Of a stretch of DNA of 64,000 bases, positions 1-64,000 are shown piece after piece. Source of the stretch: Mobula hypostoma (lineage: Eukaryota); assembly GCF_963921235.1 (NCBI RefSeq), contig NC_086108.1:80540001-80604000 (forward strand), read 5' to 3'. The notes beneath the pieces are model-generated. The model was not told the origin of the DNA. It saw only the letters and a list, made by a program, of their open reading frames with translations, and did not search any database. Position 1 is the stretch's first letter. Each line of letters opens with the position of its first letter. A program made the position numbers and the translations under genes.

Positions 1-948
1 AAAAGTCCTGGCTCTATGTTAATGTACAGTTCCCAGTCTGTCTCCAAGTTCCAGCCTCCGAGTTATCAGCCTCCGCAAGCTCAGGATCCCACACCCCAGC
101 TGGCAGTCAAGCTCAAGATCCCAGAACCCAGCCGGCAGCCAAGCTCAAGTTCCCAGAACCCAGCCGGCAGCCAAGCTCAACATCCCAGACCCCAGCCGGC
201 AGCCAAGCTCAGGTTCCCAGAACCCAGCCGGCAGCCAAGCTCAAGATCCCAGACCCCAGCCAGCAGCCAAGCTCAAGATCCCAAGCCAAGCTCCAAGAAC
301 CCAAGCCTCAAGGATCCCAAGCCAAGCTCCAAGAACCCTAGCCTCGAGGATCTCAAGCCAAGCTCCAAGAACCCTAGCCTCGAGGATCCCAAGCCAAGCT
401 CCAAGAACCCTAGCCTCGAGGATCGATCCCAAGCCAAGCTCCAAGAACACTAGCCTCGAGGATCCCAAGCCAAGCTCCAAGAACACTAGCCTCAAGGATC
501 CCAAGCCAAGCTCCAAGCTCACAACCCAAGGCCCCAGCCTGCAGCCAAGTCCAAGACCCAAGGCCCCAGCCTGCAGCCAAGTCCAAGACCCAAGACCCCA
601 GCCTCAAGCCTCAACAGCAAAGACCCCAGCCTGTTTCCAAGCTCAGGTCTCTAGACCTCAGCCACGTCCTGTCCTGAAGCCAGGTCATGTCCTTGCCTGG
701 TTCTGGGGTCTGAGCCTGAGGCAAGACCCAGGTTCTGGGTCCTTGTCCAGTCTCGGGCTCGGAGTCGAAGCCTTGTCTCCTAGTCCACGGTTTCTAGTCC
801 TGGTCCCGCTTTCCCTAGCCCAAGTCTGCGTTCTTGTCCCTGCTCCTGGTCTGAATCCTGTCACGTCCCTACTCTAGTTAAGTCCTGTTCCTTGTACTAC
901 AGTGTCTGTGTCTCACATTTGGGTCTGTTCCCAGCACCCCATTGTGAC
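1..948 (+). mobile_element. LTR-like element (3' part, truncated by window edge) with internal tandem arrays
   Basis: Ends ...cccattgtgac. 660-930 is the reverse complement of the element at ~15560-15830 (shared ggacaaggacccagaacctg...caggctcagacccc). Contains ~31-32 bp and 36 bp tandem units. Confidence 0.7.
276..517 (+). repeat. 36-bp tandem repeat (gatcccaagccaagctccaagaaccctagcctcgag), about 6 copies
   Basis: Direct reading; it produces the 12-aa DPKPSSKNPSLE periodicity of ORF 16..453. Confidence 0.9.
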
Positions 949-15527: not shown

Positions 15528-17323
15528 TGTGTGAGCCTAAAAAAATAAAGATAGAAAGAAATTTGGGAGCAGACCCAAGTGCAAGACACAGACACTGACG
15601 TACAGAGAACTGGATTGGACTAGGCTTAGGGACGGGACAGGACACAGACTTGGAGCTGGGACAGGAATACAGGCTTGGGCTAGGACTTTGGCTAGGAAAG
15701 TGGGACCAGGACAAGGAACTGGGAACTAGGAGCCTAGACCTGGACTCCGAGCCAGATACTGGACAAGGACCCAGAACCTGAGTCTTGACTCAGGCTCAGA
15801 CCCCGGAACTAGGCGAGGACATGACAAGGCTTGGGTTCTTCGAGGTTTGGGTATGGACTCCGTGCCAGAGACTGGGCAAGGACCCAGAACCTGGGTTTTG
15901 ACTCAGGCTCAGACTCCGGAACTAGGCGAAGACATGACGTGATCTTTGGAGATAGGAACCTTGGACCGAGGACTGGACACTCGAAGCCTTAGTTTAGAGC
16001 ATGGGAACATGGATCTTTGGACTTGAGAGACAGGAACATGGGACACAGAGCCAGAACCCCTCCTTGGGAACAGCACATAGGGCCAGGACTCATACACAGA
16101 ACACAGAGCCGGAACCCCTCCTTGGGAGCAGGACATAGGGCCGGGACTCATACACAGAATGCTGAACACGACAAGATGGTTCTCAAAAAAAGGTAGCAGC
16201 AAACGGCTGGACCTACCTAGTGAAGGCGTGGACACAGAGACGGTTCCCAAAACAAGGTAGCGGCATACGGCCGGACCTACCTAGCGAAGGCGTGGACACA
16301 GAGACAGTTCCCAGCACAAGGTAGCAGCAAATGGCCAGACCTAGCTAGCGAAGGTGTGGACACAGAGACAGTTCAAAACAACGATAGACAGTTCCTTATC
16401 TAGACACAGCATGGCTCCGGTCTTGCTCCGGCAGTAGAACTTGACAGTGAAACAGGCAAGGCTTCAGAAGGAAGGGGAAGGGAAGGGAACAGTCCAGCCT
16501 CAGGGTAACGGCAAAGACAGCCTGGCTTGCCCAATGGAGGCAAGGACAGGAAGGGACAGATCCAACCGCAGGGTAATGGCAAAGACAGCTTGACTTACCT
16601 CACGGAGTCGAGGACAGGATACTGACAAGATGAACCAGCACCCACACTCGAACCCAGGGCCACTTATATTCCCCGCCCCAAGACGAGCATCAGGTGCCTA
16701 TGATTAAAGGCTGATTTATACTTGTGCGTCAACGCGACGCCATAACCTATGCAAGTGGCTTATGTGCATTGTGAGCATTTATACTTGTGCATTGGTGTGT
16801 CTGCATCACTGCACAATTCAGGCATGTTGTGCATGCGCACATACCTGCCTGTGCAAGGCTTCATGGTCATGGTAGTCTTTCTCAGGGTAAACAAGTTTAA
16901 AGCGAGCATCTTTTCTCGTAAAAGTGAAATGCGTCCCCCATAATTTTGGAGGTCTGTAAAGCTTTATGGAAAGCATTGCAGCCAGAGTTCCTTCCCTGCC
17001 CTTCAGTCGCCCAATGGGAAGCTATTGCAGCGTAGGAGGAAATGCGATGCTACCAAGCGGACCAATCACAGTTGTTGCGGTCTGCGTTGCTGCGATGCGC
17101 AGTTACATTTTGGGAGAGGTGCGCGTCAGGCTACGGCATAGGGATCTGTGTAGGCACTGTGTAGGGTTTGTGGCGACGCCGTACCTACGGCGTTGAGTTG
17201 ACACAGAAGTATAAATTAGCCTTTAGCCCAACTGAAACAAGGGACAGCCGGTAGACCCGGAGCCTGGAGTCCACGGACCGGACCGTGAACTGGAACGCGG
17301 ACATCACGGACCGGACCATGACA
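15528..17323 (-). mobile_element. Solo-LTR-like element with internal tandem duplications
   Basis: tg..(15528) to ..catgaca (17323). gatata occurs on both flanks (15521-15526, 17324-17329; one extra base on the left). TATA-like box on the minus strand at ~16663-16670. Same family as 1-948. Confidence 0.72.
16707..17223. mobile_element. MITE, probably PIF/Harbinger-like, nested in the LTR
   Basis: ~35-bp imperfect TIRs aaggctgatttatacttgtgcgtcaacgcgacgcc / ggcgttgagttgacacagaagtataaattagcctt; TA (or TWA) on both flanks. Confidence 0.85.
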
Positions 17324-18112: not shown

Positions 18113-18421
18113 GTTTGTATTTCACTTATTTTATGTCTTTTACATTTGTTTTTCATCTTGAATGTGATTCTGGAACTGTTGGAGCCTGTGATTTGCAGCT
18201 TGGAGATCAATTAGCTGTTTCAGTGCTCTGCAGTCTCTGAGTGGATTCCGGAAGATAGAGGCAGCGTGCGTGAACCTTGAGGCAAGCAGGCTATGGGACA
18301 GGGTGCGAGCTGATGTTCAACTCCATTTTGCCAATTAAACCTTCCAATGTTCATTGATTAAAGTGACGAAGGAGATTGAAGCGTCAAGGCAAATGAGGAA
18401 GGTGAGCGTTGGCTACTTGCC

Positions 18422-18612
18422 TTTTGATTGCTGGGGGATTGCTCTGCAAACAGAGAGGAGAGACTGTTTTGATCGCTGTGGGATCGCTCTGCAAACGGAG
18501 AGGAGAGACTGTTTTGATCGCCGTGGGATCGCTCTGCAAACGGAGAGAGGAGGCTGCCTTTTGATCGCTGTGGGATTGCTCTGCCAATGGAGAGGAGAGG
18601 CTGCCTTTTGAT
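18422..18612 (+). repeat. 45-47 bp minisatellite, 4 units
   Basis: ttttgat starts at 18422, 18467, 18512, 18559, 18606; unit ttttgatcgctgtgggatcgctctgcaaacggagaggagagactg. Confidence 0.9.
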
Positions 18613-18704
18613 CATACTCCCCCATCTCCAGCCCTGTACCTCTTTCTTTTTTCCAGAGATGCTGCCTGGCCTGCTGAGTTCCTCCAGCATTTTGTATGTG
18701 CTGC

Positions 18705-19022
18705 TGGGATGCTTCCTATGGTGGGGGAATCCAGAACTATGGGGCACAGCCTCAAAATTGAGAGCTGACCTTTTAGAACAGAGGTAAGGAGGGATTTTTT
18801 AGCGAGAGATTAGTGAATCTGTGGAATGCTCTGCCACAGACTGGGGTGGAGGCCATGTCGGAAGTCGATCGTTTCCTGATCAGTCAGGGCATCAAAGGAT
18901 ATGGTGAGAAGGCAGGTGTTTGGGGTTGAGTGGGATCCGGGATCAGCCATGATGGAATGGCAGAGCAGACTCAATGGGCTGAATGGCCTAATTCTATTCC
19001 TATGTCTTATGGTCTTACGGTA
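18705..19022 (+). mobile_element. CR1 LINE 3' end
   Basis: ggggaatccagaactatggggcacagcctc..gtgaatctgtggaat..tatgtcttatggtctta tail. Confidence 0.85.
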
Positions 19023-41483: not shown

Positions 41484-43357
41484 CTACAAGTTCAAAAGGA
41501 ATTTAGAATGCTTTTAACTCATTGCCTTCTGAAAAATATTACAGGATTAGTGTAAATGGGTAGTTGATGATAGGCATGGACTCCAATACCGAGGGTTAAA
41601 AGGCACGTTTCTGTGCTACATCTCTCTATCATATCAGATAATGAGCTCACGGTACTTCCCTGCCTTTTGCCTCCCTCCCTGCTTGATCAAGGCTGTCACA
41701 TCTGCAGTTTCCCAATCCACTGGAAACCTCACCGAACTCTGTACTTTTGAGAATTTTCAACCAACGGCTCTGCTATCTCTTCGGCCACTTTCTTTAAAAC
41801 CCTTGGATGCAGGCCATCTGTTATCCTGGTGATATGTGCCGTACACATTTGACCCTTTTTCCTATCAAACGTTAGAAACATTATACTTGACATATGAACA
41901 ATTCCAGACATTAACAAAAAACTTGCTGGTCAGTCATCATTGTAAAATGAAAAGGATAGGTTATCACTTCAGTTCCAATCCTTTGTCAGAAAATGAATTA
42001 ATCACATTCTTGGTACAGGGCATCAGTGTTGGCTGACATGGTATGTTGAGTACATATTGGAAAATGATTAGCACATTTTTACTAAATATTCTGTGGCAGC
42101 ACAAAGGGCGAATAAATCATGACAGAAATCACTGTGCAGCAGCGTTGCCAGTTTGAAACTTTATGCTCCAACACACACCTTCTCTTAACCTCCTGCAGTT
42201 CAATAATGTAGAATATTAACACGTAGCTATGTCTCCTTCTCTCTTGTTAATTCCTGTTGCACATAGTTGTGCACACCTTGCTGGGTAAGAGAAGGGGAAG
42301 GTGTAAGTGAATATTAAGCAATCTGTGCAACTGATTTAACTGTCAAGTTTAAATACCTGCAATTTTGTGCTGCTGTGAGATACGTGGGAATGTGAGCTAA
42401 ATTATATGACTATTAGATACAAGCTTTGATTGATAGACATAAGGTGGTTGTTAGGCAAGTTGGGTGGCTGTGACAACTTCAGCAGTGTCTGATGCCAATG
42501 GCTAGTTGTTCACTTGGTATGATGTGGGACTTGAAGGCTCCATTTTCATCCTTCCCTTTCCGAAGCAATTTAATATCCATATTTGAATTACTTTATAACT
42601 TATGAATAAATGAATATTTAGTAAAACTAAGTAAATTAAAAGACAAACATAATTCACATTTAACAACGATATACAGATGGAGGAATAAAAGCAAATTTTG
42701 TTGATGGGTTCAAGAGAAAATACAAAGAAAGCACATTAAGTGGGAACAAACAAATACAAACACAATATCACAGGAAGAGGAAGCAGAAATAGTGTAAGAA
42801 ATTTCTGAAGAGTTCCAAGCCAAGCCAAGCATTTGCTATCTCATATTTTTCAGCTGCTTTTCCTTCAGAGAAGATTAAACATACTGTATCTTCTTTCAGG
42901 TTTATAATTTACTCCATTTGTTTTAATCCTAGTGCACAACCCTAGTAACATAAACTTAAAATTATATAAAGCAGATGTCCAGAAATAGAACAACACATCT
43001 GTTTGAGATTGAGATTAAATTAAGACAGAAGTTTAAGAAAATACTCTCACCAGATTTATTGAAACGAAACATAAGCAAAACACAGCACATTTTGGAAATT
43101 TGAAATCAAAACAAAAAACGCTGAAGGTGCTCAGCAGATCATGCAACGTCTATGAAGAAAGGAACAGAGCTAGCACTACAGATCATTGACCCATCAGAAC
43201 TGGAAATGAACTTATTCAAGTGAACTTACTGGCAACCATTATCTAGGAGCGTAGTGCACTTGTATGTCTAAGCTAAGGACACAGGGAGAACTGGGAGAGA
43301 CAGATTTTGACTTTCTCAAACTAAGAAGAAAAAAAAAGCCAAGAAGAGTAAGTAGAG

Positions 43358-43562
43358 CAACACACCAAATGCTGGAGGAACTCCGCAGGTGAGGCAGCAC
43401 CTATGGACAAGAATAGACAGTAGCTGTTTTGGGCCAACAGCCTTCATCAGTACTGCAGAATCTCTCATTTATTCGCTCCATAGATGCTACCTGATCTGCT
43501 GAGTTCCTCCATCATTTTGTGTGTTTCTCTGGATTTTCAGCATCTGAAGAATCTCTTGTGTT
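43358..43562. mobile_element. Mini Penelope-derived element with two inverted terminal-repeat copies
   Basis: caaatgctggaggaactccgcagg..ctatgga versus tccatagatgctacctgatctgctgagttcctccatcatttt; caagaagag on both flanks. Confidence 0.75.
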
Positions 43563-43779
43563 CAAGAAGAGAAGGGAGAAGCATCTTGCTTAAGTGTAAT
43601 GCCTACTAGCCAGTCAGTGGATGGTGCAGTCATTTTTATTTGTCAACTATATAAGACAAATTCAGAGTTAATCAACATATTGGTTTATAATTAGCTTCAT
43701 TTTAACAGCAAACATCTCAGTAGTTCATAATTATAATTAGTTTCCTCTCACTCTAGGAAAACTACTATACACCTTCCAG

Positions 43780-45871: not shown

Positions 45872-48171
45872 TCCTCTTATATAAGTTTAAAGAAACCAAA
45901 ATACAGCTGTAACACTTAATTAAGACACCACGATGATCAACTACAGTAAATCAAAGTAAACACAGTTCTAATGTCGAATCTATAATTAGTGTGAAACAAT
46001 TTTGATGACAGTAAAGGTCTTCAAAATTATAGCTTGCCAACAACAGAATAATTATACTCACTGCGTGTGTATGTGCATGTATGAGTGTGTGCGGAGGGCA
46101 TTCACTATCTTCAAATGTGTTCATTTTGTTTAGACATTAGAAAAATTGTTCTGTTGACTTCTAAGTCTGGGACAAGTTGTCCCTCTAAAGCTTTTCTGTT
46201 CAACTTTGACGAATGATGTACTTATATAGTCCTTGAGATGTTTATAACTGGCAGCACACAAAAGACGGATTCAGTGAATGCAAATTTTTCTGAATAATAA
46301 AGCACAAAAGCCCATTTCCTTGAGATTTAGCTTCAAAACATACTTCTTATTTCCTCAGTGCTTGGCATTGGAGAATAATTTTCACCCCAAGAAAACAATA
46401 GCGTGCAATTTGAAATCAAACTGAGCTTCTCCAGAAAATGCAGACTTGGATCTCGAGAGGCACTAACTGATAGCTGAAGAAGAGCAAGAGAAACATCCCA
46501 CCTGGAGCTCTCCGATCAACAAAATGAATGGGGCATGAACAGGAGGGAAGCCATTAAGGGCAAAGAGAAACACTTTCCAGAATAAATCTGCTCAGTTGTA
46601 ATTCACAATGCTTACAAAATTACCTTCTTCACAATATAATCCTTAACACAAAAATCATTTTTCTGAGAGCACCCTCACACTTTCCTCTGCACTGATCATA
46701 ATACAACTGTGAATAAATTGCTGATCTAGTAACTGCATTCATTTGCTATAACTGGTTACAGTGGTACACAACTCACTCTGACAACGTCTCCTGAAAACAT
46801 CAGAGTAACTTCTGCATTGCCCAAATGAGAGGACAAACTGTAGTCACATCCTGCCAGACCCTTCATATGGTGAGACTAGCTGAATACCTTTCCCTTGATA
46901 CAAATGCCTCTCTCCTTACCCCGTGTCTATGATTAGTATATTCTTGTCCCTTCGAGTGTATCTCCTCCCTCCATTCTTCATCCAGTGCAGTTTTTCTCTC
47001 GTCCTGCACAGCCTTAGGGTGTAATTGCCTCCCAGGTGCCAGGGTTAGTGATGTCTCAGATCAGGTCTACAGTAGTCTAAACGCAGCTAGCTGGAAGTTT
47101 TGGTACATATTGGTATCAACAACATAGGTAAGAAAAGGAAAACGGTCCAGAAGAGAGAATATATGGAGTTAAGTAGAAAGCTAAAAAGTAGGACCTCAAG
47201 GGCAGTAACTTCTGGACTGCTGCTTGTGCCATGCACCGATGTGAGTAAAAGTAGAATAATTTGGCCGATGAATGCATGGCTGAGGAATTGGTCCATGGGG
47301 CAAGGTTTCAGATTTCCCGATCATGGGGAACTCTTCTAATGAAGGCCTGACCTGTACAAAAGGGAAGGGTTATGGATTACACCTGAACCCAAGGGGGACC
47401 AATGTCCTTGTGGGCAGGTTTGCTAGAGGCTGTTGGGGAGGGTTTACACGAATTTGTCAGGGGGATGGAAACTAGAGTGATAGGGCTGAGGATGGGGCAA
47501 TTGGTACACATGTAGATGTGGTATGTAGTGAGACTGTGAGGAGAGGGAAAAACTGCAGTCAGTGGAATGAACTGAAGTAAAATTGAAAAGCGTGATGAAT
47601 ACAGGACTGAAGGTGTTATATTTGAATGTATGCAGTGGACAAAATAAGGTAGATGATCTTGTAGCGCAGTTACAGATTGGCAGGCATGACATTGTGGCTG
47701 AAAGAAGATCATAATTGGGTACACATTGTATTGAAAGGAAACAACGTGGGCAGGTGGGCAAATGGGGTAAGGTAGTTCTGTAGGTAAAAAATGAAATCAA
47801 ATACTTGAAAGAGATTACACGGGATTTGAAGAAGTAGAGTCCTTGAGGGCAGAGTTAAGAAACAGCATGTGTAAAAAAGACCCTGATACAGGCCTCCAAA
47901 CGAAGCCAGGATGTGGGATACAAATTACAATGGGAGATAGAGAAGGCTTGTAATAAGTGCAATGTGATGATAATCATAGGGGATTTCATTGTACAGGTAG
48001 ATTGGGAAAATCAGGTTGGTGCTGGATCCCAAGAGAGGGAATCTGTAGAATATCTGCAAGATGCCTTTTTAGAGCAGCTTGTGGTTGAGCCGACAACAGG
48101 AAAGGCAGTTCTGGATTGTGTGCTGTGTAATGAACCAGCTCTGATTATGGAGCTTAAGGTGAAGGGACCTT

Positions 48172-49148
48172 TCGGTTCCCCTTGTCCTCACCTACCACCC
48201 CACCAGCCTCTGGATCCAGCACATTATCCTCCGCAACTTCTGCAACCTTCAACAAGATCCCACCACTAAGCACATCTTTCCCTCTCCACCCCTCTCCGCT
48301 TTCCGCAGGGATTGGTCCTTCCGCGACTCCCTTATCCACACGTCCCGCCCCACGGATCTCCCACCCGGCACTTATCCCTGTAAGCGTAAGCGCTACACCT
48401 GTCCCTACACCTCCTCTCTTGCCACCATTCAGGGCCCCAAACAGTCTTTCCAGGTGAGGCAACACTTCACTTGTGAGTCTGGTGGGGTCATCTATTGCAT
48501 CCGGTGCTCCCGGTGTGGTCTCCTCTACATCGGTGAAACCCAACGCAGATTGGGGGACCGCTTCGTCGAGCACCTCCGCTCCGTCCACCACAACAGACAG
48601 GATCTCCCGGTAGCCACCACTTCAACTCTGCTTCCCATTCCCATTCAGGTATGTCCATACATGGCCTCCTCTACTACCATGATGAGGCTAAACTCAGGTT
48701 GGAGGAGCAACACCTCATATACCGTCTAGGTAGTCTTCAGCCCCTTGGTATGAACATAGAATTCTCCAACTTCCGGCAATTCCCTCCCACTCCCTTCCTC
48801 TATCCCTATTTCACTCTGCCCAGTCCCCCAGCTGCCTATCACCTCCCTCATGGTTCTGCCTCCTTCTACTACCCATTGTTTTCCTGCCTATTACCTCCCT
48901 GCTTCCCCTCCCCCACCCCTTTGTCTTTCAAATTACTGGTTTTAAAACTGAACCTACCAGCCTTCTACTTCCAACCTCCACCACCTTCTTTATAGGGCCT
49001 CTGCCCCTTCCCTCTTCAGTCCTGACAAAGGGTTCTGGCCCGAAACGTCGACTCATTGTTTCCAGGGATGCTGCCCGACCTGCTGAGTTCCTCCAGCATG
49101 TTGTGAGTGTTGCTTTGATCCCAGCATCTGCAGATTATTTTCTGTTTA
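48172..49148 (+). mobile_element. Young Penelope-like element 3' part nested in CR1
   Basis: VPLVLTYHP..; RQHFTCESGGVIYCIRCSRCGLLYIGETQRRLGDRFVEH (GIY-YIG); RLEEQHLIYRLGSLQPLGMNIEF; many CpGs retained. Confidence 0.93.
49018..49053 (+). ncRNA. Minimal type I hammerhead ribozyme motif (one core mismatch)
   Basis: AGTC-CTGACAA-A-GGG(TTCTGG)CCC-GAAA-CGTC^GACT: helix I AGTC/GACT, helix II GGG/CCC, palindromic ACGT helix III, GUC site; CUGANGA reads CUGACAA. Confidence 0.75.
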
Positions 49149-55762: not shown

Positions 55763-58700
55763 TTTCAAACTTGTTTATGTCTTTCTTGCAGGAAGGTGAC
55801 CAAAACTGCACACAATACTTCAAATCAGGTCTCAACAACGTCTTATATAATAACTTGCATATAAAATTCCATCTCCTGTACTCAGTACTTTCATTTATGA
55901 CTGCCAATGTGCCAAAAGCTTTCTTTACGGCCCCATCTACCTGTGAGGCCACTTTCAATGAATTATGGACCTGTATTCCCTGATCCCTTTGTTCTATCAC
56001 ACTCCTCAGTGCTCTATTGTTTACTGTGTAAGACCTACCCTGGTTGGTCAAAGTGCAACACCTCACATTTGTCTGCATTAAATTTCATCTGCCATTTTTT
56101 CAGCTGCTCCTGATCCCACAGCAAGTCATAATAGCCTTCCTCATCCACTACACCCCCAATCTTGGTGTCATCCGCAAATTTTCTGATCCAGTTAACCATA
56201 TTATTATCCAGATCATTGATATATGTGACAAACAGCAAAGGACCCAGCACTGATTCCTGCGGCACACCACTAGTCACAGGACTCCAGTAAGAGAGCCATC
56301 CCTCTACTACCACTCTCTGGCTTCTCCCACAAAGCCAATGTCTAATCTAATTTACTACCTCATCTTGAATGCCGAACGACTGAATGTTCTTGACCAACCT
56401 CCCATGTGGGACATTGACATATGCCTTACTAAATTCCATGTAGCCACATAAACTGCCTTGCCTTCATCAGCTCTCCTGGTAATTTCCTCAAAAACCTCTA
56501 GAAGATTGAATAGACATGACTTACCATGCAGAAAGCCATGCTGACTATCCTTGCGCATCAAGTATATTGGTCTGCATCAATTAGACTTCAGAGGGGAGAA
56601 AATGGGAGTCACACCAACAAGTGAGTAGGGTGATGTAGAAAAAGATCTGGCAAGGACATGGAATCAAAGGTCTTGACTGGCGGGGTATTTGAACAGATAT
56701 CGCCCGCACATTCATTTTCCAAACGGAGTCATAAATTCAGCCCGTAAATTAATTCAGGTCAAAGGATTATGATTGATCAGTAAGCAGTTAGATAGCACAG
56801 GTGTAAGTGACACTGGATAAATATTTTCTCAGAACAAACACCAAAATAAGTAAAGTTGGAAGAAGTGGGTTGAGATCGTTCAGGGTTATGTCTCTTACTT
56901 GTGCTCAGTGGTGCAGATGGCACACAAAATCAATGGGGCAACCTCCCAGTGTCAAGAGGTCTTAGAAGCATAATCCGAATGGAATCTCAAAAGGGACCTA
57001 GAAACACAAACCAGAATAGATTGAGGGATATTAATTAAGATGCTGAGCAGGAGAAAATGAACAGAAGGTGAAAAGTTGATGAAAATCGGGCCTGGAGTTG
57101 AGCTGGTGTTTGAAAAGCATGAATATTCAGAGGAAAAGCGGCCAGAAGAATAAGGGTGAAAGGATGAATCAAAACTATCATTCAATGACACACAGAACTA
57201 TATATGGAAATATAATTTTTAAGTGGCATATTTCAACAGCAGGAAGCAGTATAATTTCAAAACTGCAGTTCCACAATTAAGAAAATATGATTGATTTGGT
57301 CCATTTAGAAAGTGACTGTGAAGTAAAATAAACTGATGGAGAAAAAGATTATCTGGTTTAAACCTACAAAGGCTGCATTGTGAGTCATTCCTGACAGTAC
57401 CTAGTTCCAGATGATACGAGGAAACTTTTTTCTTGTTCTATTTACAATTCTCAATCCTGGAAGGGGCACTGCTAAAGTTCAGTACAAACTGAAGAAGGAA
57501 GGCTGCACTAACTTCAATTTTATGGAAAGAATTTATTACTGAAACGAGGGACACAGGTGAATCTAATTTTTTTAACAATTTGCCACGTTAAAAATCATTT
57601 CTCTTAAAAGGTCTACGGTGGCTCTAGATTTAATGTCCAACTCTGTTGTAAACCATTGAAATACATAAGTAGAGCTGATCCAGGCCATGAGATGCCTCCT
57701 GGATTCTGTCTGTTTCTTTACAATGGTGTCAATCTGATCAGGCACAGCTCTGTTTTCCGTCTCTGCCAAGTATTTGCTACATAAACAGATCAGCCATACT
57801 TTAGAGGTTAAAATAGAAGCTATGCAGATTCCTTGCAACTATTCTATAAATGGTAACATTATAAATATTCACCCCAAAAATAACCTATACTTGGGGATTA
57901 TTCTGCAACCAAAGGGTCCATAAATTGCCACAGTCTTCGTGAATATATTCAATGAGCTATTTCATGTATCTATAATCAACCTCAATTTTTTTTAAGTTTT
58001 GCTTTGAGATATAGTTTAAGAAAAAATTGAGTCACTTTTACTTGGTCTACCAGGAACACAGTGATGTATTTAAAATGATTCATGGCATTTATCTGTTCTG
58101 GTAAACAAATAAAATTTGGTTGTTTTTGTTACATGATGGTGCTGTCCCTTCAATATGCAGACAGCTTATGACTTACAGGAATTAAGTTGTCTTTCTTGTT
58201 CTCCACTTCCAATGCTGTCAGCTCATCAGGAGTCAATAGAAAAAGGCGTAATTCACGAACAACTTCCTTTGCTATTTCTGGTACAGACTTGTCAAGAACT
58301 ACCTGTGTTGGAGGATAAAAAAATTATATTAGTTTCTGGAAAAAAAAGTTAAAGTTTCTATATTGATGGTGCAGCAATATGTTGGCCACATCCTTATATC
58401 AACTGATGCTGATGTGTAGAATTCATGTTCGTTCCTAGATTTAAAAGAAACAAACTGGACACTTCTCCTGGTCCTAATGCTTGAAACTCAGCTTTTGAAC
58501 ACAGTGCATTGCTGATATTCAACAAAATTTGCCTGATATAATAGGACAGTGAATGGCAAGGCTATTATTACTGGGTTCCAGAGCACACCTATCTGTGTAC
58601 AGCATCTGAGAAATGTGCAACCCCACAGAGCATTGCTGCCATCATTTTGACCCTTAATGATTTCAGGTTTTAGGTTTACCTAACAGTGAATGGAAATCAA

Positions 58701-58944
58701 ATGAAAATGAAATGCACAGTAGGGCCTGCTTCAAAATGTGAAAAAGGAACTAAATGGAGTATGCAACACAAAAGAACTACTTTTTCCAGTCCTTCATCTT
58801 TCCAAGAAGTGGTTGTTAAAAGGTATGTAAACGGCTACTGAAGCAATACTAGGTATCTTCAGTAGAGTGAAGTAAAGTAGTTTTGCTTCTGCCTGTTCCA
58901 AATAACTATCGTCGACCACTGCCTGCCTACTTTCAGCTTTCCTG

Positions 58945-59306
58945 AGCACAAAATAATCTGCAGATGCTGGGGTCAAAGCAACACTCACAACACGCTGGAG
59001 GAACTCAGCAGGTCGGGCAGCATCCGTGGAAAAGATCCCACAAAATAATCTGCAGATGCTGGGTCAAAGCAACACTCACAACATGCTGGAGGAACTCAGC
59101 AGGTCGGGCAGCATCCGTGGAAAAGATCCCACAAAATAATCTGCAGATGCTGGGGTCAAAGCAATGCTCACAACATGCTGGAGGAACTCAGCAGGTCAGG
59201 CAGCATCTGTGGAAAAGATCCCACAAAATAATCTGCAGATGCTGGGGTCAAAGATCTTTTCCACGGATGCTGCCCAACCTGCTGAGTTCCTCCAGTGTGT
59301 TGTGAG
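58945..59306 (-). repeat. Tandem array of 91-92 bp Penelope-terminus units (3 plus a partial) with an inverted piece, TSD-flanked
   Basis: Units start at 58947, 59039, 59130, 59222; inverted segment 59253-59306; 13-bp direct repeat ttcagctttcctg at 58932-58944 and 59307-59319. Confidence 0.9.
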
Positions 59307-60249
59307 TTCAGCTTTCCTGCATTTTACAATTTGATGTATTCAAGTTTATTGGATGAAAACTTCCAAACGTGCAGTCTCACTATCTGTTCAGTTGCGGCAA
59401 TATTTCCAACCACAATGTTGCTTCTGTTCGTAATTCAGATTGCCATTTCTGATCATGCACCATTGAAACTTTCTATCAAGTTAATGGATATATCTCCTAA
59501 TACTAGACTATGGCATTTTAATTCCAATTTGCTTCAAGATTCGGTTGTTGTTAAATTTATCAAGGAACAGATTGACTTCTTCTTTTCAACTAATGCTACG
59601 GAAGAAATTTCCAGCGGGGTATTATGGGACACTTTTAAAGCATATATCCGTGGACAGATTATCTCTTATTCTGCTGGATTGAAAAAACATATTAAGAATG
59701 AAATACTTGTGTTAATTAACAAAATTGAAGAAATTGATAAGAAATATGCCACTGCTCCTAGTGAGGAGCTTTATAAACAGAGAGTCAAACTTCAAATGGA
59801 CCATAGTTTACTGTTAACATCTTCAAATGAAAATCAATTAATGAAAACAAGAAGCGGGTTTTATATACATAGTGATAAGTCTGGTAAATTATTAGTTAAT
59901 CAATTAAAAACTGCTTTGGTTAAACATCAAATTATCAAGATTCGTAAACATGATGACACTTTGACAGTTGATCATGATGGGATAAACAAATCTTTTCAAG
60001 AATTCTATACATCTCTATATCAGTCAGAATTTCCTCATGATCCCAACGAAATGCATGACTTCTTAAGGAAATTGAACTTTCCGAAATTAACACCCGAAGA
60101 AAGATTAAAGTTAGAAACACCTAATACGGATGAAGAAATAAAGGGTGTTATTTCTTCAGTGAACTCTGGCAAAGCACCTGGTCCAGATGGTTATACAGTA
60201 GAATTCTTTAAGTCCTTTTCTTCTATTCTTTCCCCTTGGTTGTGTGGAG

Positions 60250-61110
60250 CAAGGGTCCCCAACCTTTTTTGCACCGCGGACCGGTTTAATATTGACAATA
60301 TCCTGACTGGCCGGAGGGGGGGGGGGAGGGGGTGGTTCAAGTAGGGTTAAACTCACCTCAACATGTCGTTTACAGTGAGGGTTGCCAACTTTCTCACTCC
60401 CAAATAAGGGACAAAAGTAGCAGTCAAATCCCGACGAAGGGTCCTGGCCCAAACGTCCGCTGTATCTCTTCCTATAGATGCTGCCTGGCCTGCTGCGTTC
60501 ACCAGCATTTTTTGTGTGTGCTGACGGGACACTTGTGTTTACCCCGAGAAAGACTATCATGACCATGAAGCCTTGTGCGGGCACCTGTGTGCGCATGCGT
60601 GACGTCCGCATATGCGACCTGTGCGTGCGTGTACGTGCCAATATTTTCCCCCACATATCGGTTTTGGCTTAGTCTTCCCGACTACACTGTTCATACATTA
60701 TTTCTACTTTATATAGGCTGTGTATTTATCATATCGTTCCTGCTTTCACTATATGTTAGAGTTATTTTAGGTTTTATGTGTTATTTGGTAGGTCATTTTT
60801 TGGGTCTGGGAACGCTCAAAAATTTTTCCCATATAAATCAATGGTAATTGCTACTTCGCTTTACGCCATTTCAGCATGAAAGGTTTCATAGGAACACTCT
60901 ATCTTAGTGGGGGAAATACAGGACAAGGGCAGTCCCATATGGGACAAACCAATTTAGCCCAAAATACAGGATGTCCTGGCAAAGACAGGACAGTTGCCAA
61001 CCCTATGTTCAAGTTTAAAAGTGCCTGACAGGGAAAGGTGCAGTTGAGTCATATCATTTCCTCGCGGCCCGGTAGCACATGCTTTGCGGCCCGGTGGTTG
61101 GGGATCGCTG
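60250..61110. mobile_element. Composite non-autonomous hAT (Charlie-like) element inserted in L1 ORF2
   Basis: TIRs caagggtccccaacc / ggttggggatcgctg; degenerate 8-bp TSD gtgtggag / atgtagag; L1 reading SPWLC|RVFKDAI resumes after it. Confidence 0.85.
60378..61005. mobile_element. Inner element with (T)AGGGTTGCCA-type hAT termini
   Basis: agggttgccaact (60378) and agttgccaacccta (60992-61005), one mismatch from a perfect inverted repeat; gggaca subterminal motifs. Confidence 0.65.
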
Positions 61111-63009
61111 ATGTAGAGTTTTTAAAGATGCAATTAGAATAGGTAAATTACCACAATCATTTTATGGAGCTTCTATTTCTCTAATTTAAAAAAAATAAGG
61201 ATCATATAGACTGATACCCTTATTGAATGTAGATTCTAAGATCTTTTTCTAAAATATTAGCATCTAGGTTAGAGAAGGCTCTCCCTTAAATTATCTCTGT
61301 GGATCAAACTGGATTTATTAAAAATCATTATTCATCCTTTAATATTAGGAGATTAATGAATATTGTTTATACTCCTTCACTTAGAACTCCAGAATGTGTC
61401 ATTTCATTGGATGCTGAGAAAGCTTTTGACAGAGTTGAATGGCCATATTTATTCAGTATGCTTGAGAAGTTTAATTTCAGTCTGATTTACTTCTTGGATT
61501 AAATTGATATATCATACCCCTGTAGCTTTGGTTTTTACTAATAATCAAAGATCTCCCTTTTTTCAATTATTTCGTGGTACTAGGCAAGGTTGTCCTCTTA
61601 GTCCATTATTATTTGATATTGCTCTTGAACCTTTAGCAATTGCTATTCGAGATTCACCAAATATTTTTGGTATCACTCATGGGAATGAGGTACAAGGTTA
61701 TCATTATATGCAGATTATTTATTATTATATATTTCTAATCCAGAGAAATCCATTCCTGCAGTTCTATCCTTGTTGGCTCAGTTTAGTAAATTTTCTGGTT
61801 ACAAACCGAACCTTAATAAGAGTGAACTTTTTCCGTTAAACATGCAGGTTCCAAGTTATGAATGTTTACAATTCAGATTGGTTCCGATTACTTTACTTAC
61901 TTAGGGGTCAAAATTACAAGGAAGCACAAGGATTTATTTAAGGCTAATTTTTTTTTACCTTTAATGGATCAGATTAAATGTTTGTTTACTAAATGGTCAC
62001 CAATGTCTTTGTCATTAATTGGCCGGATCAATGCTGTCAAGATGATTATTTTACCTACATTTTTATACTTATTTCAAGTGTTGCCAATTTTTATTCCGAA
62101 ATCCTTTTTTGATAATGTTGACTCAAAAATTTCTTCATACATATGGCTAACAAAAATCCCAGATTAGGTAAAAGATACTTACAGAAGTCCAAAAAGGAGG
62201 GTGGTTTGGCATTGCCCAACTTTAGATTTTACTATTGGGCAATTAATATTCGATATTTAAAATTTTGGACATGGAATTTGGATACAATTTTTAGTCCACA
62301 TTGGGTAAATCTTGAATGTAAATCTGTACAAGGGTTTTCATTGGGTTCTATTTTAGGGACCTTGCTTCCCTTTGTTCTTTCAAAATTGGATAAACAAATG
62401 AATAATCCAATAGTTAAATATACTCTTCGAATATGGTTGCAATTTCGAAAATTTTTTGGGTTGAATCAATTTATTTTAGTAAGCCCTATTATATCTGATT
62501 TTTTTTCAACCCTCTATTATGGACCAAGCCTATTTAGTCTGGAAAGCAAAAGGTATAATACGATTTCGTGATATATTTTCGGATAATTATTTCATGTTTT
62601 TGGAACAATTATCTAATAAATATAATTTACCTAGATCTCACTTCTTCAGATATTTACAGATTAGAAACTTTTTATATACTGTTCTTACTACCTTTCCGAA
62701 TCTATATCCAATGGATATCATGGAAAAAATTTTAGATTTAAATCCCTCTCAGAAAGGTTTAATAGCAATTATTTATAATATGTTTATGAAAATAAATCCA
62801 GATGTATTTAATAAAATTAAGAACGATTGGGAAAGGGAACTTAACCTCACTTTACCTACAGAAAAATGGGAAAAAAATTTCAATTAGTTAATTCTTCCTC
62901 TATATGTGCTAAACATGCATTGATACAGTTTAAAGTAGTACAAAGGGTTCATATGTCTAAGGATAAATTAACCTGTTATTACTCTCATATAAATCCTATA
63001 TGTGACAGA

Positions 63010-63088
63010 TAGTCATAGTCATAGTCATACTTTATTGATCCCGAGGGAAATTGGGTTTCGGTACAGTTGCACCAATCAGGAATAGAGT
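63010..63088 (-). mobile_element. Very short Rex1 3' tail inserted in the L1 Cys-rich region
   Basis: tagtcatagtcatagtcatactttattgatcccgagggaaattgggtttc identical to ~22351-22394; splits NPICDR|SEIASLTHMFWSCP. Confidence 0.9.
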
Positions 63089-64000
63089 ATCTGAGATAGC
63101 TTCCTTAACTCATATGTTTTGGTCATGTCCTCTGTTGAAGAAATATTGGAAAGATATCTTTGATATTATTTCAACTGTTCTGGATATTGATTTACAACCT
63201 CACCCCATTACTGCAATTTTTGGTTTACCAGTGATAGAACAAAGTCACTTGACCTCTTCATCTTGTTGGATGATTGCATTTGTTACATTAATGGTTAGAA
63301 GATCCATACTATTGAATTAGAAAGAGATTAATCCTCCCACTACATTTCAATGGTTCTCTCAAACTATATCATGTTTAAATTTAGAAAAAATTAGAAGTTT
63401 CATTTATGATCCTTCTATTAAATTTGAAGAGACTTGGAGGCCATTTATTCAATACTTTCATACGATGTAATTTGACTCTCTCCAATTCTATTCTGCTACT
63501 TTTAAATATATGGAGAGAGGAGCGGAGTTAATGACACTATTGGTTTTATCTGATGTAACATAAAAAAGAAAAAGAAATGGGCTTATTGGGGTATATATTT
63601 TTTTCTTATTTTCTTTTTCCATGATATTTTTGTATATATTTTTGTCTATATATTATTATATTTGTACTCTGTAAGATTTTGGGAGGTTATTATCTGTGTG
63701 TTAACTGTGCTTATATTTATATATACTAATTATTAACAATGTAATCCCAGTAGCTTTGTATCAATTCTTTGTAATGTTTAAGAATTTGATATTAATAAAA
63801 AGATTGAAAAAGAAAGAAAGATTCACCTCTTCACTCCCAGAGTGGGTGCAGGGAATGAAAACATTGTTGAGAAAGTGAATTTAACAAGTATAGCTGACCC
63901 AGATGTGTTGGAAGTCCAAGAGATTCGTGTCCCATTTCTGGAGAACTGGCACAACACAACTGAGGTCTTCTGGTTAAGATCCCAGCTCTAAAAGCTATGA

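What the first reader, a model, noticed from the sequence alone, without database searches (positions are those of the whole stretch)
58945..59306. Tandem 92-bp array equal to the segment downstream of a Penelope hammerhead cleavage site
Seen: three near-identical 91-92 bp units plus a partial unit and a 54-bp inverted piece, inside a 13-bp TSD, so probably one insertion event. On the minus strand each unit (gatcttttccacggatgctgcccgacctgctgag...cagattattttgtg) matches ~49054-49144. It starts a few bases after the predicted GUC^ site and ends at the element 3' end, and it lacks the ribozyme core. Knowledge: PLE reverse transcriptases are related to telomerase and PLE termini carry hammerheads. 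Inference: a ribozyme-released short RNA was copied repeatedly (template jumping or rolling on a mini-circle), a route from ribozyme product to minisatellite.
Basis: partly seen in the sequence, partly recalled or inferred. Interest (0 to 1): 0.72.

Follow-up and report, generated by a model that had tools for sequence, protein, structure and literature searches.

The report
Penelope tail repeats at ribozyme edge
One insertion of a Penelope-like jumping gene in a ray holds three and a third copies of the element's 92-base tail, each starting four bases past the predicted ribozyme cut, so the copying enzyme likely stopped at the ribozyme's first stem and restarted, and later DNA duplication probably added the extra copies.

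Summary
The structure is real: a 13-bp target-site duplication encloses three 91-92 bp units, a 32-bp partial unit and a 54-bp inverted arm. The units are the tail of a Neptune/Nematis-type Penelope-like element (PLE). A close relative shares the insertion's left junction; a more distant one runs past the site without it. But the unit is not the whole cleavage product: it starts at +5, lacking exactly the four bases of hammerhead helix I, with one extra G at each joint. The frame (inverted tail-less arm, tailed arm, junction palindrome) is the known PLE insertion. Best reading (0.45): reverse transcription stopped at helix I, re-primed once at the tail start, and DNA duplication multiplied that joint. 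Reiterative telomerase-like copying (0.25) and a released or circular ribozyme product (0.15) are not excluded. None of 7 other head-to-tail joints seen starts at +5 or at the cut. The scan had already noted two-armed PLE insertions and breakpoints at the ribozyme edge elsewhere in this genome; my look-ups showed no array like this. One locus, no genome available.

The parts
58932..58944 (.). left copy of 13-bp target-site duplication
58945..58946 (.). two extra bases at the tailed end, in neither the target nor the units
58947..59038 (-). unit 1 (92 bp): PLE tail from +5 to +95 after the predicted cut plus one extra G; keeps all three variable CpGs
59039..59129 (-). unit 2 (91 bp): one C lost in a C run, one CpG-type change
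59130..59221 (-). unit 3 (92 bp): five changes from unit 1
59222..59253 (-). partial unit, unit positions 61-92 (tail only)
59250..59259 (.). 10-bp palindrome centred on GATC at the inversion junction
59253..59306 (+). inverted tail-less arm, unit positions 2-55; starts at the same +5 base as the units
59307..59319 (.). right copy of the duplication; a 5-base run of it matches, in register, the family sequence that would follow the arm
48163..48780 (+). broken GIY-YIG endonuclease end of a related PLE copy (sister subfamily, not the parent)
49018..49053 (+). minimal type I hammerhead of that copy: helix I 49018-21 with 49050-53, predicted cut between 49049 and 49050
   Evidence: pattern as in PMC4209133; no Rfam hit
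49059..49144 (+). tail of that copy, 92-97% like the units
58177..58302 (-). exon of a BTBD19-like gene (bounds read by hand); the insertion likely lies in the intron before it, in the gene's sense

Best explanation
This is one two-armed insertion of a Penelope-like retroelement tail, in which the reverse transcriptase likely stopped at the first stem of the hammerhead ribozyme, likely restarted once at the element's tail start, and later DNA duplication probably multiplied that joint into three identical units. Steps. Shown: one 13-bp duplication encloses everything; a more distant relative runs past the site without the insertion; units and arm begin at +5; the units end at the family's main 3' site. 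From known PLE biology: both target strands are cut and prime at two neighbouring internal RNA sites, giving a tailed and a tail-less arm. Inferred: copying from the tailed site ran 91 bases to helix I (folded, cut or uncut), gained one untemplated base and re-primed at the tailed site; copying from the tail-less site ran 54 bases to the same boundary; the two cDNA ends joined at the GATC palindrome, either where the first cDNA met the second primer or by a later 56-bp loss of one palindrome arm. That leaves a direct repeat of at least 32 bp at 92-bp spacing, which slippage or unequal exchange would expand. Ribozyme cleavage is not required.
For: Frame matches published PLE insertions: partial tandems, inverted 5'-truncated copy, 30-40 bp tail on one end, palindrome at the inverted junction, TSD; two adjacent internal start sites and extension of both strands in vitro. 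58947 is the largest loose-end peak in the DNA runs (262, 193, 37 contigs); tail-less ends at 58977-58980 lie 4-7 bases from the arm's end, and a 5-base run of the duplication matches the RNA there in register (P about 0.005). The 4 missing bases are exactly helix I's 3' strand. Of 12 other family copies in the window, 9 begin at the ribozyme's edges (five at -26 to -36, four at -1 to +10) and 3 are long (ends uncertain by about 5 bases). All 3 joints are identical to the base, which is easier to explain as copies of one joint than as three restarts with variable start and added base. The one derived state shared among units is shared by neighbours (units 2 and 3). Organism C: a 2012-nt contig fits 58564-58943 and goes on 1632 nt unlike the stretch.
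Against: One locus. The shared state in units 2 and 3 is weak: it is a 35% family variant and chance sharing has P 0.28-0.87, so a simultaneous origin of all units fits as well; no change is shared by all three units. Two expansion events from a 32-bp repeat are not shown. If the arm is a snap-back copy, only one stop at +5 is independent, and the GATC palindrome alone could have fixed it. 0 of 7 other head-to-tail joints listed start at +5 (they start at +9, +12, +21, +26, +27, +34, +46), though joints identical to ours or a few bases longer would not have been listed. The letters beyond the site in organism C were not shown, and the unit number in organism B is unknown.
Confidence: 0.45

Rival explanations
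1. Reiterative copying in one event: the PLE enzyme held one RNA, copied from the tail start to helix I as a template boundary, reset, and did so three times and a part, until it met the second primer. Works like telomerase, DRT2 or DRT10 repeat addition.
For: No change is shared by all three units and unit 1 is unchanged, so the units parted at or soon after insertion; 1 non-CpG substitution in about 332 sites fits independence since about the A-B split (2.6 expected, P 0.26). The partial unit ends at positions 61-65, where the second primer would sit. PLE priming needs no homology. A stem 5' of the template sets the boundary in telomerase and DRT10; DRT2 makes 120-bp repeats and fold-backs.
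Against: No alignment repeat was seen: the family's bases after the tail end read TTTA, not GATC (consensus of mixed loose ends; window copies). Three identical joints demand high precision. The in vitro PLE study, in the parts read, reports no such ladder. No second example found.
Confidence: 0.25
2. One reading: hammerhead cleavage released a short RNA, trimmed by 4 bases or with helix I still paired, which was copied repeatedly by template jumping or as a 92-nt circle.
For: The start lies 4 bases from the predicted cut; a circle gives identical joints; R2 enzyme jumps between short templates using untemplated bases; a circular intermediate has been proposed for PLE tandems.
Against: Start is +5, not +1; the 3' end is an internal RT start site, not a ribozyme cut, so the known circle route does not apply; the arm stops at the unit start, which a circle does not predict, and a stronger 10-bp palindrome lies elsewhere in the unit; cleavage-dead RNA inserted normally in vitro and no RNA-seq reads began at the cut in Anolis.
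Confidence: 0.15
3. A source locus elsewhere already carried tandem tail units behind its hammerhead; its transcript was inserted once, with the first primer at the last unit and the second at the first unit.
For: Gives identical joints, the geometry of two primers on one RNA, and an arm that stops at helix I in one step; pLTRs can mobilise enclosed sequence in trans.
Against: Only moves the origin of the joint elsewhere; no second locus with this joint was seen, although the tools could not show one.
Confidence: 0.12
4. Assembly or chance artefact.
For: Short tandem units can be mis-assembled; the one-base loss in unit 2 could be a read error.
Against: Units carry different CpG changes; perfect duplication; left junction present in contigs of two organisms.
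Confidence: 0.03

Closest known systems
Insertion unit of endonuclease-bearing Penelope-like elements (Pen2a_Av of Adineta vaga, PMC3846280, passages; PMC8557442, passages; Poseidon of Anolis, PMC11167929, parts 1-2 of 4)
   Same: Partial tandem plus adjacent inverted 5'-truncated copy, tail on one end only, palindrome at the inverted junction, one target-site duplication, two internal start sites.
   Different: Here the tandem has three base-identical 92-bp units with the same 5' stop, all without the ribozyme core; the passages read describe two or more copies of unequal length.
Non-LTR retrozymes (PMC7229834, passages; bioRxiv 10.64898/2026.07.22.740005, parts 1-3 of 5)
   Same: Short tandem arrays derived from PLE terminal repeats, present in cartilaginous fish; the preprint also invokes tandem birth followed by unequal crossover.
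   Different: Retrozyme units each hold a hammerhead and can self-process; these units hold none and would be missed by that definition.
Repeat-adding reverse transcriptases: telomerase, DRT2 (PMC12039810, passages), DRT10 (PMC12632851, passages)
   Same: A template bounded on its 5' side by an RNA stem; head-to-tail cDNA repeats; fold-back products in DRT2.
   Different: They use an alignment repeat to reset and are shown biochemically; here no alignment repeat was seen and the evidence is one genomic fossil.
Template jumping and snap-back by R2 enzyme (PMC8857657, abstract; PMC11371274, passages); L1 twin priming (Ostertag and Kazazian 2001, recalled, not read)
   Same: Untemplated base at a joint, tandem copies, inverted 5' piece with a small loss near the second primer site.
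   Different: No poly(A), no L1-type cut site, start internal to the RNA; the nearby L1 begins only at 59439.

Membership tests
Endonuclease-bearing PLE insertion | Terminal repeat that follows a GIY-YIG endonuclease end | tested here: met
   Sister copy: weak Pfam GIY-YIG hit, E 7e-4, 20.2 bits, below the 22.6 cut-off; 60 homologs, best 82% from rays, some with an RT domain
Endonuclease-bearing PLE insertion | Minimal hammerhead in the terminal repeat | tested here: met
   Core, helix I and cut site at 49018-49053; same motif behind 59037 in contigs; activity not tested
Endonuclease-bearing PLE insertion | Inverted 5'-truncated arm, tail on one end only, junction palindrome, target-site duplication | tested here: met
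Neptune/Nematis clade | CX2-5CxxC linker before GIY-YIG | tested here: inconclusive
   43 of 60 homologs match a CX2-6CxxC pattern; the window copy lacks one cysteine
Neptune/Nematis clade | Placement in the RT tree | not tested
   No RT of this family was located in the window
Non-LTR retrozyme | Hammerhead in every repeat unit | tested here: not met
Non-LTR retrozyme | Monomer ends set by self-cleavage | tested here: not met
   Start at +5; 3' end at the RT start site
Non-LTR retrozyme | Circular RNA monomers in cells | not testable with these tools
   Only contigs were available, which cannot show RNA ends
Telomerase/DRT-type repeat addition | Stem at the 5' template boundary | tested here: inconclusive
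   Geometry fits helix I; the stop is inferred; the motif alone does not fold better than shuffles (z 0.52)
Telomerase/DRT-type repeat addition | Alignment repeat at both ends of the template | tested here: inconclusive
   Family bases after the tail read TTTA, not GATC, but the parent copy's own downstream bases are unknown
Telomerase/DRT-type repeat addition | Processive multi-round synthesis | not testable with these tools
   needs biochemistry
L1-driven twin-primed insertion | Poly(A) tail and L1 endonuclease site (recalled) | tested here: not met
   Neither at 58932-58947

The most novel reading that the evidence does not exclude
The PLE reverse transcriptase, closest mobile relative of telomerase, can copy one RNA segment over and over in vivo, with the hammerhead's helix I acting as a template boundary rather than as a cutter; this array is a fossil of such repeat addition and a route from PLE tail to minisatellite in one step.
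Probability: 0.22. Interest if true: 0.75.

Novelty: new variant of a known kind. Interest (0 to 1): 0.38.

Why it matters
What the PLE hammerhead does is open: cleavage was dispensable in the one in vitro system. A precise stop at helix I would give it a structural role as a barrier to reverse transcription, and repeated restarts would link PLE enzymes to telomerase-type repeat addition. Both are directly testable, by a genome-wide count of this joint and with the existing purified-protein assay. If the units grew by DNA duplication, this is a tidy but ordinary case of a retroelement seeding a minisatellite.

Tried and rejected
No whole genome is held, so the genome-wide test of unit boundaries was not run. 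Rfam: 0 hits in the window. Pattern scans: viral contigs 0, metagenomes 0 and 2 hits that match only 20-25 bases and look like chance, bacterial genomes 0. Sequencing runs: no RNA holder on record listed; one run guessed to be RNA was laid, and its contigs say nothing on RNA ends. Depth over 59038-59072 was rejected as a count of joints, because tail contigs fit two places. My first idea that the target was an L1 was wrong: L1 homology starts at 59439. L1-driven twin priming was rejected (no poly(A), tail asymmetry of PLE type). A pure DNA origin of the first joint was judged unlikely: it joins the family's main RT start site to +5 with no flanking homology and an extra base. Folding: the unit forms a moderate hairpin (z -2.0), the circular form is less stable than the linear one (-20.7 vs -25.2 kcal/mol); neither decides anything. 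Earlier-findings look-ups by sequence, near, relatives and words returned nothing. The Terminon paper (PMC5850863) is not held.

Full report
Observation. The array is there as described. Tandem Repeats Finder gives 58947-59253, period 92, 3.3 copies, 96% matches. A perfect 13-bp duplication flanks it at 58932-58944 and 59307-59319 (chance about 3e-6). Read in the element's sense (minus strand) the insert is: duplication, inverted arm (unit positions 2-55), partial unit (positions 61-92), three full units, two extra bases, duplication. The three head-to-tail joints are identical over 23 bases.

Setting. Protein relatives point to a ray (best hits Hypanus and Mobula). The insert lies about 640 bases from an exon of a BTBD19-like gene on the minus strand, likely in its intron (the upstream exon was not located). 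It is not in the nearby L1, whose homology starts at 59439. The copy at 48-49 kb ends in a broken GIY-YIG domain (weak Pfam hit; 60 homologs; 43 of 60 with a zinc-finger linker of Neptune/Nematis type), followed by a minimal hammerhead: helix I 49018-21 with 49050-53, predicted cut between 49049 and 49050, of the kind in PMC4209133 (parts 1-2 of 4 read).

Relatives. I laid 4 of the 24 listed runs on 58450-59072, that is the left flank, unit 1 and 34 bases of unit 2 (all contigs; 24 of 409 loose-end rows and 32 of about 61,000 pieces shown). Organism B carries the left junction: a contig runs from the flank to 58970 with 8 differences in 521. In organism C a 2012-nt contig fits 58564-58943 (17 differences in 380) and goes on for 1632 letters unlike the stretch; this fits an empty site, but those letters were not shown. 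The insertion therefore likely arose after C split off and before A and B split. Unit number in B could not be read.

Unit boundaries. Behind 59037 the family continues into the hammerhead (122, 126 and 26 contigs), which places the unit's first element-derived base at +5 after the cut. The four missing bases are the 3' strand of helix I, and each joint has one extra G. The 49-kb copy is a sister subfamily and matches only from 49059. The other end, 58947, is the largest loose-end peak in the three DNA runs (262, 193, 37 contigs), the tailed start site; tail-less ends cluster at 58977-58980, 4-7 bases from the arm's end. A 5-base run of the right duplication matches the family RNA there in register (P about 0.005), as expected if that overhang primed the arm. 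Of 12 other family copies in the window, five begin at -26 to -36, four at -1 to +10 and three are long (old copies, ends uncertain by about 5 bases, very short copies undetectable). Against a general rule: the 7 other head-to-tail joints listed start at +9, +12, +21, +26, +27, +34 and +46, none at the cut or at +5; joints equal to ours or a few bases longer would not have been listed.

The inversion. The junction is a 10-bp palindrome around GATC. It can be made by a perfect fold-back followed by a 56-bp loss through a 4-base microhomology, or by the first cDNA meeting the second primer at positions 61-65. If the arm is a snap-back copy (as for R2, PMC11371274, passages), only one stop at +5 is independent; if it was primed from the target, at least two are. 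Tail asymmetry favours the second. I first read this as L1-type twin priming; earlier scan notes on two-armed insertions and the papers moved me to the known PLE frame: partial tandems, inverted copy, one-sided tail and junction palindromes (PMC8557442 and PMC3846280, passages), two internal start sites and extension of both strands (PMC11167929, parts 1-2 of 4). That paper also found cleavage dispensable for insertion and no reads starting at the cut.

How did three units arise? Units differ at three CpG sites, one adjacent double change in unit 3, and one lost C. Unit 1 carries the majority family letter at every position listed (58971-59000). No change is shared by all three; units 2 and 3 share one, which is also a 35% family variant, and chance sharing has P 0.28-0.87. 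One non-CpG substitution in about 332 sites fits independence since about the A-B split (2.6 expected, P 0.26) and not since the C split (7.4 expected, P 0.005). So the units parted early, which suits both a single event and early duplication. The first joint needs an RNA-level restart (inferred: it joins the main start site to +5, without homology, with an extra base). After that, a precursor of arm, partial unit and one full unit already has a 32-bp direct repeat at 92-bp spacing. Base-identical joints are what copying of one joint gives; hence 0.45 for one restart plus DNA duplication, 0.25 for reiterative copying, 0.15 for a released or circular cleavage product, 0.12 for a multimer transcript from elsewhere, 0.03 for artefact. 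These odds are judgement, not computation.

Comparison. It is a PLE insertion by every structural feature tested. It is not a non-LTR retrozyme, whose units each hold a hammerhead (PMC7229834, passages; bioRxiv 10.64898/2026.07.22.740005, parts 1-3 of 5). It may work like telomerase, DRT2 or DRT10 repeat addition (passages), but no alignment repeat was seen. Template jumping with untemplated bases is known for R2 (PMC8857657, abstract); tandem dimers of mobile elements expanding into arrays are known in flies (10.1101/158386, abstract). In eight literature searches (listings only, apart from the papers named) I saw no description of identical core-less PLE tail arrays bounded at helix I; key papers outside the library (Arkhipova 2006 and 2017, Evgen'ev and Arkhipova 2005) and the supplements of PMC11167929, which I did not open, may bear on this.

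Verdict. Real, a new variant of a known kind, from one locus. Interest 0.38; the reiteration reading has probability about 0.22 and would deserve 0.75.

Noticed in passing
window 43340-43571: Older head-to-head pair of the same PLE ends, tail-less arm on the minus strand and tailed arm on the plus strand, with a possible 9-bp duplication; arms begin at about -36 and +3.
   Followed up: partly
window, 12 family copies between 7663 and 60531: Nine short PLE-end copies begin at one of the two edges of the hammerhead; none begins between about -37 and -200.
   Followed up: partly
window 59439-63473: 5'-truncated, frameshifted L1 ORF2 on the plus strand, interrupted at about 60246-61087 by a stretch that holds a PLE end at 60420-60531.
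   Followed up: partly
window 58177-58302, minus strand: Exon of a BTBD19-like gene, 96-100% identical to ray proteins over the matched part.
   Followed up: partly
window 18418-18613 and 18646-18710: A 45-47 bp tandem array (4.3 copies) directly beside a tail-less PLE end, 500 bases from another PLE copy.
   Followed up: no
window 76-608: Compound tandem array of 32- and 36-bp units with an open frame of 284 codons across it.
   Followed up: no
window 15634-16619: Cluster of short tandem duplications with periods 24, 58, 64 and 68, possibly one LTR-element region.
   Followed up: no
contigs of runs X1, X5, X11 laid on 58973-59033: Seven other head-to-tail joints of PLE tail pieces, mostly to the tail-less end, six with 1-38 letters in between.
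   Followed up: partly
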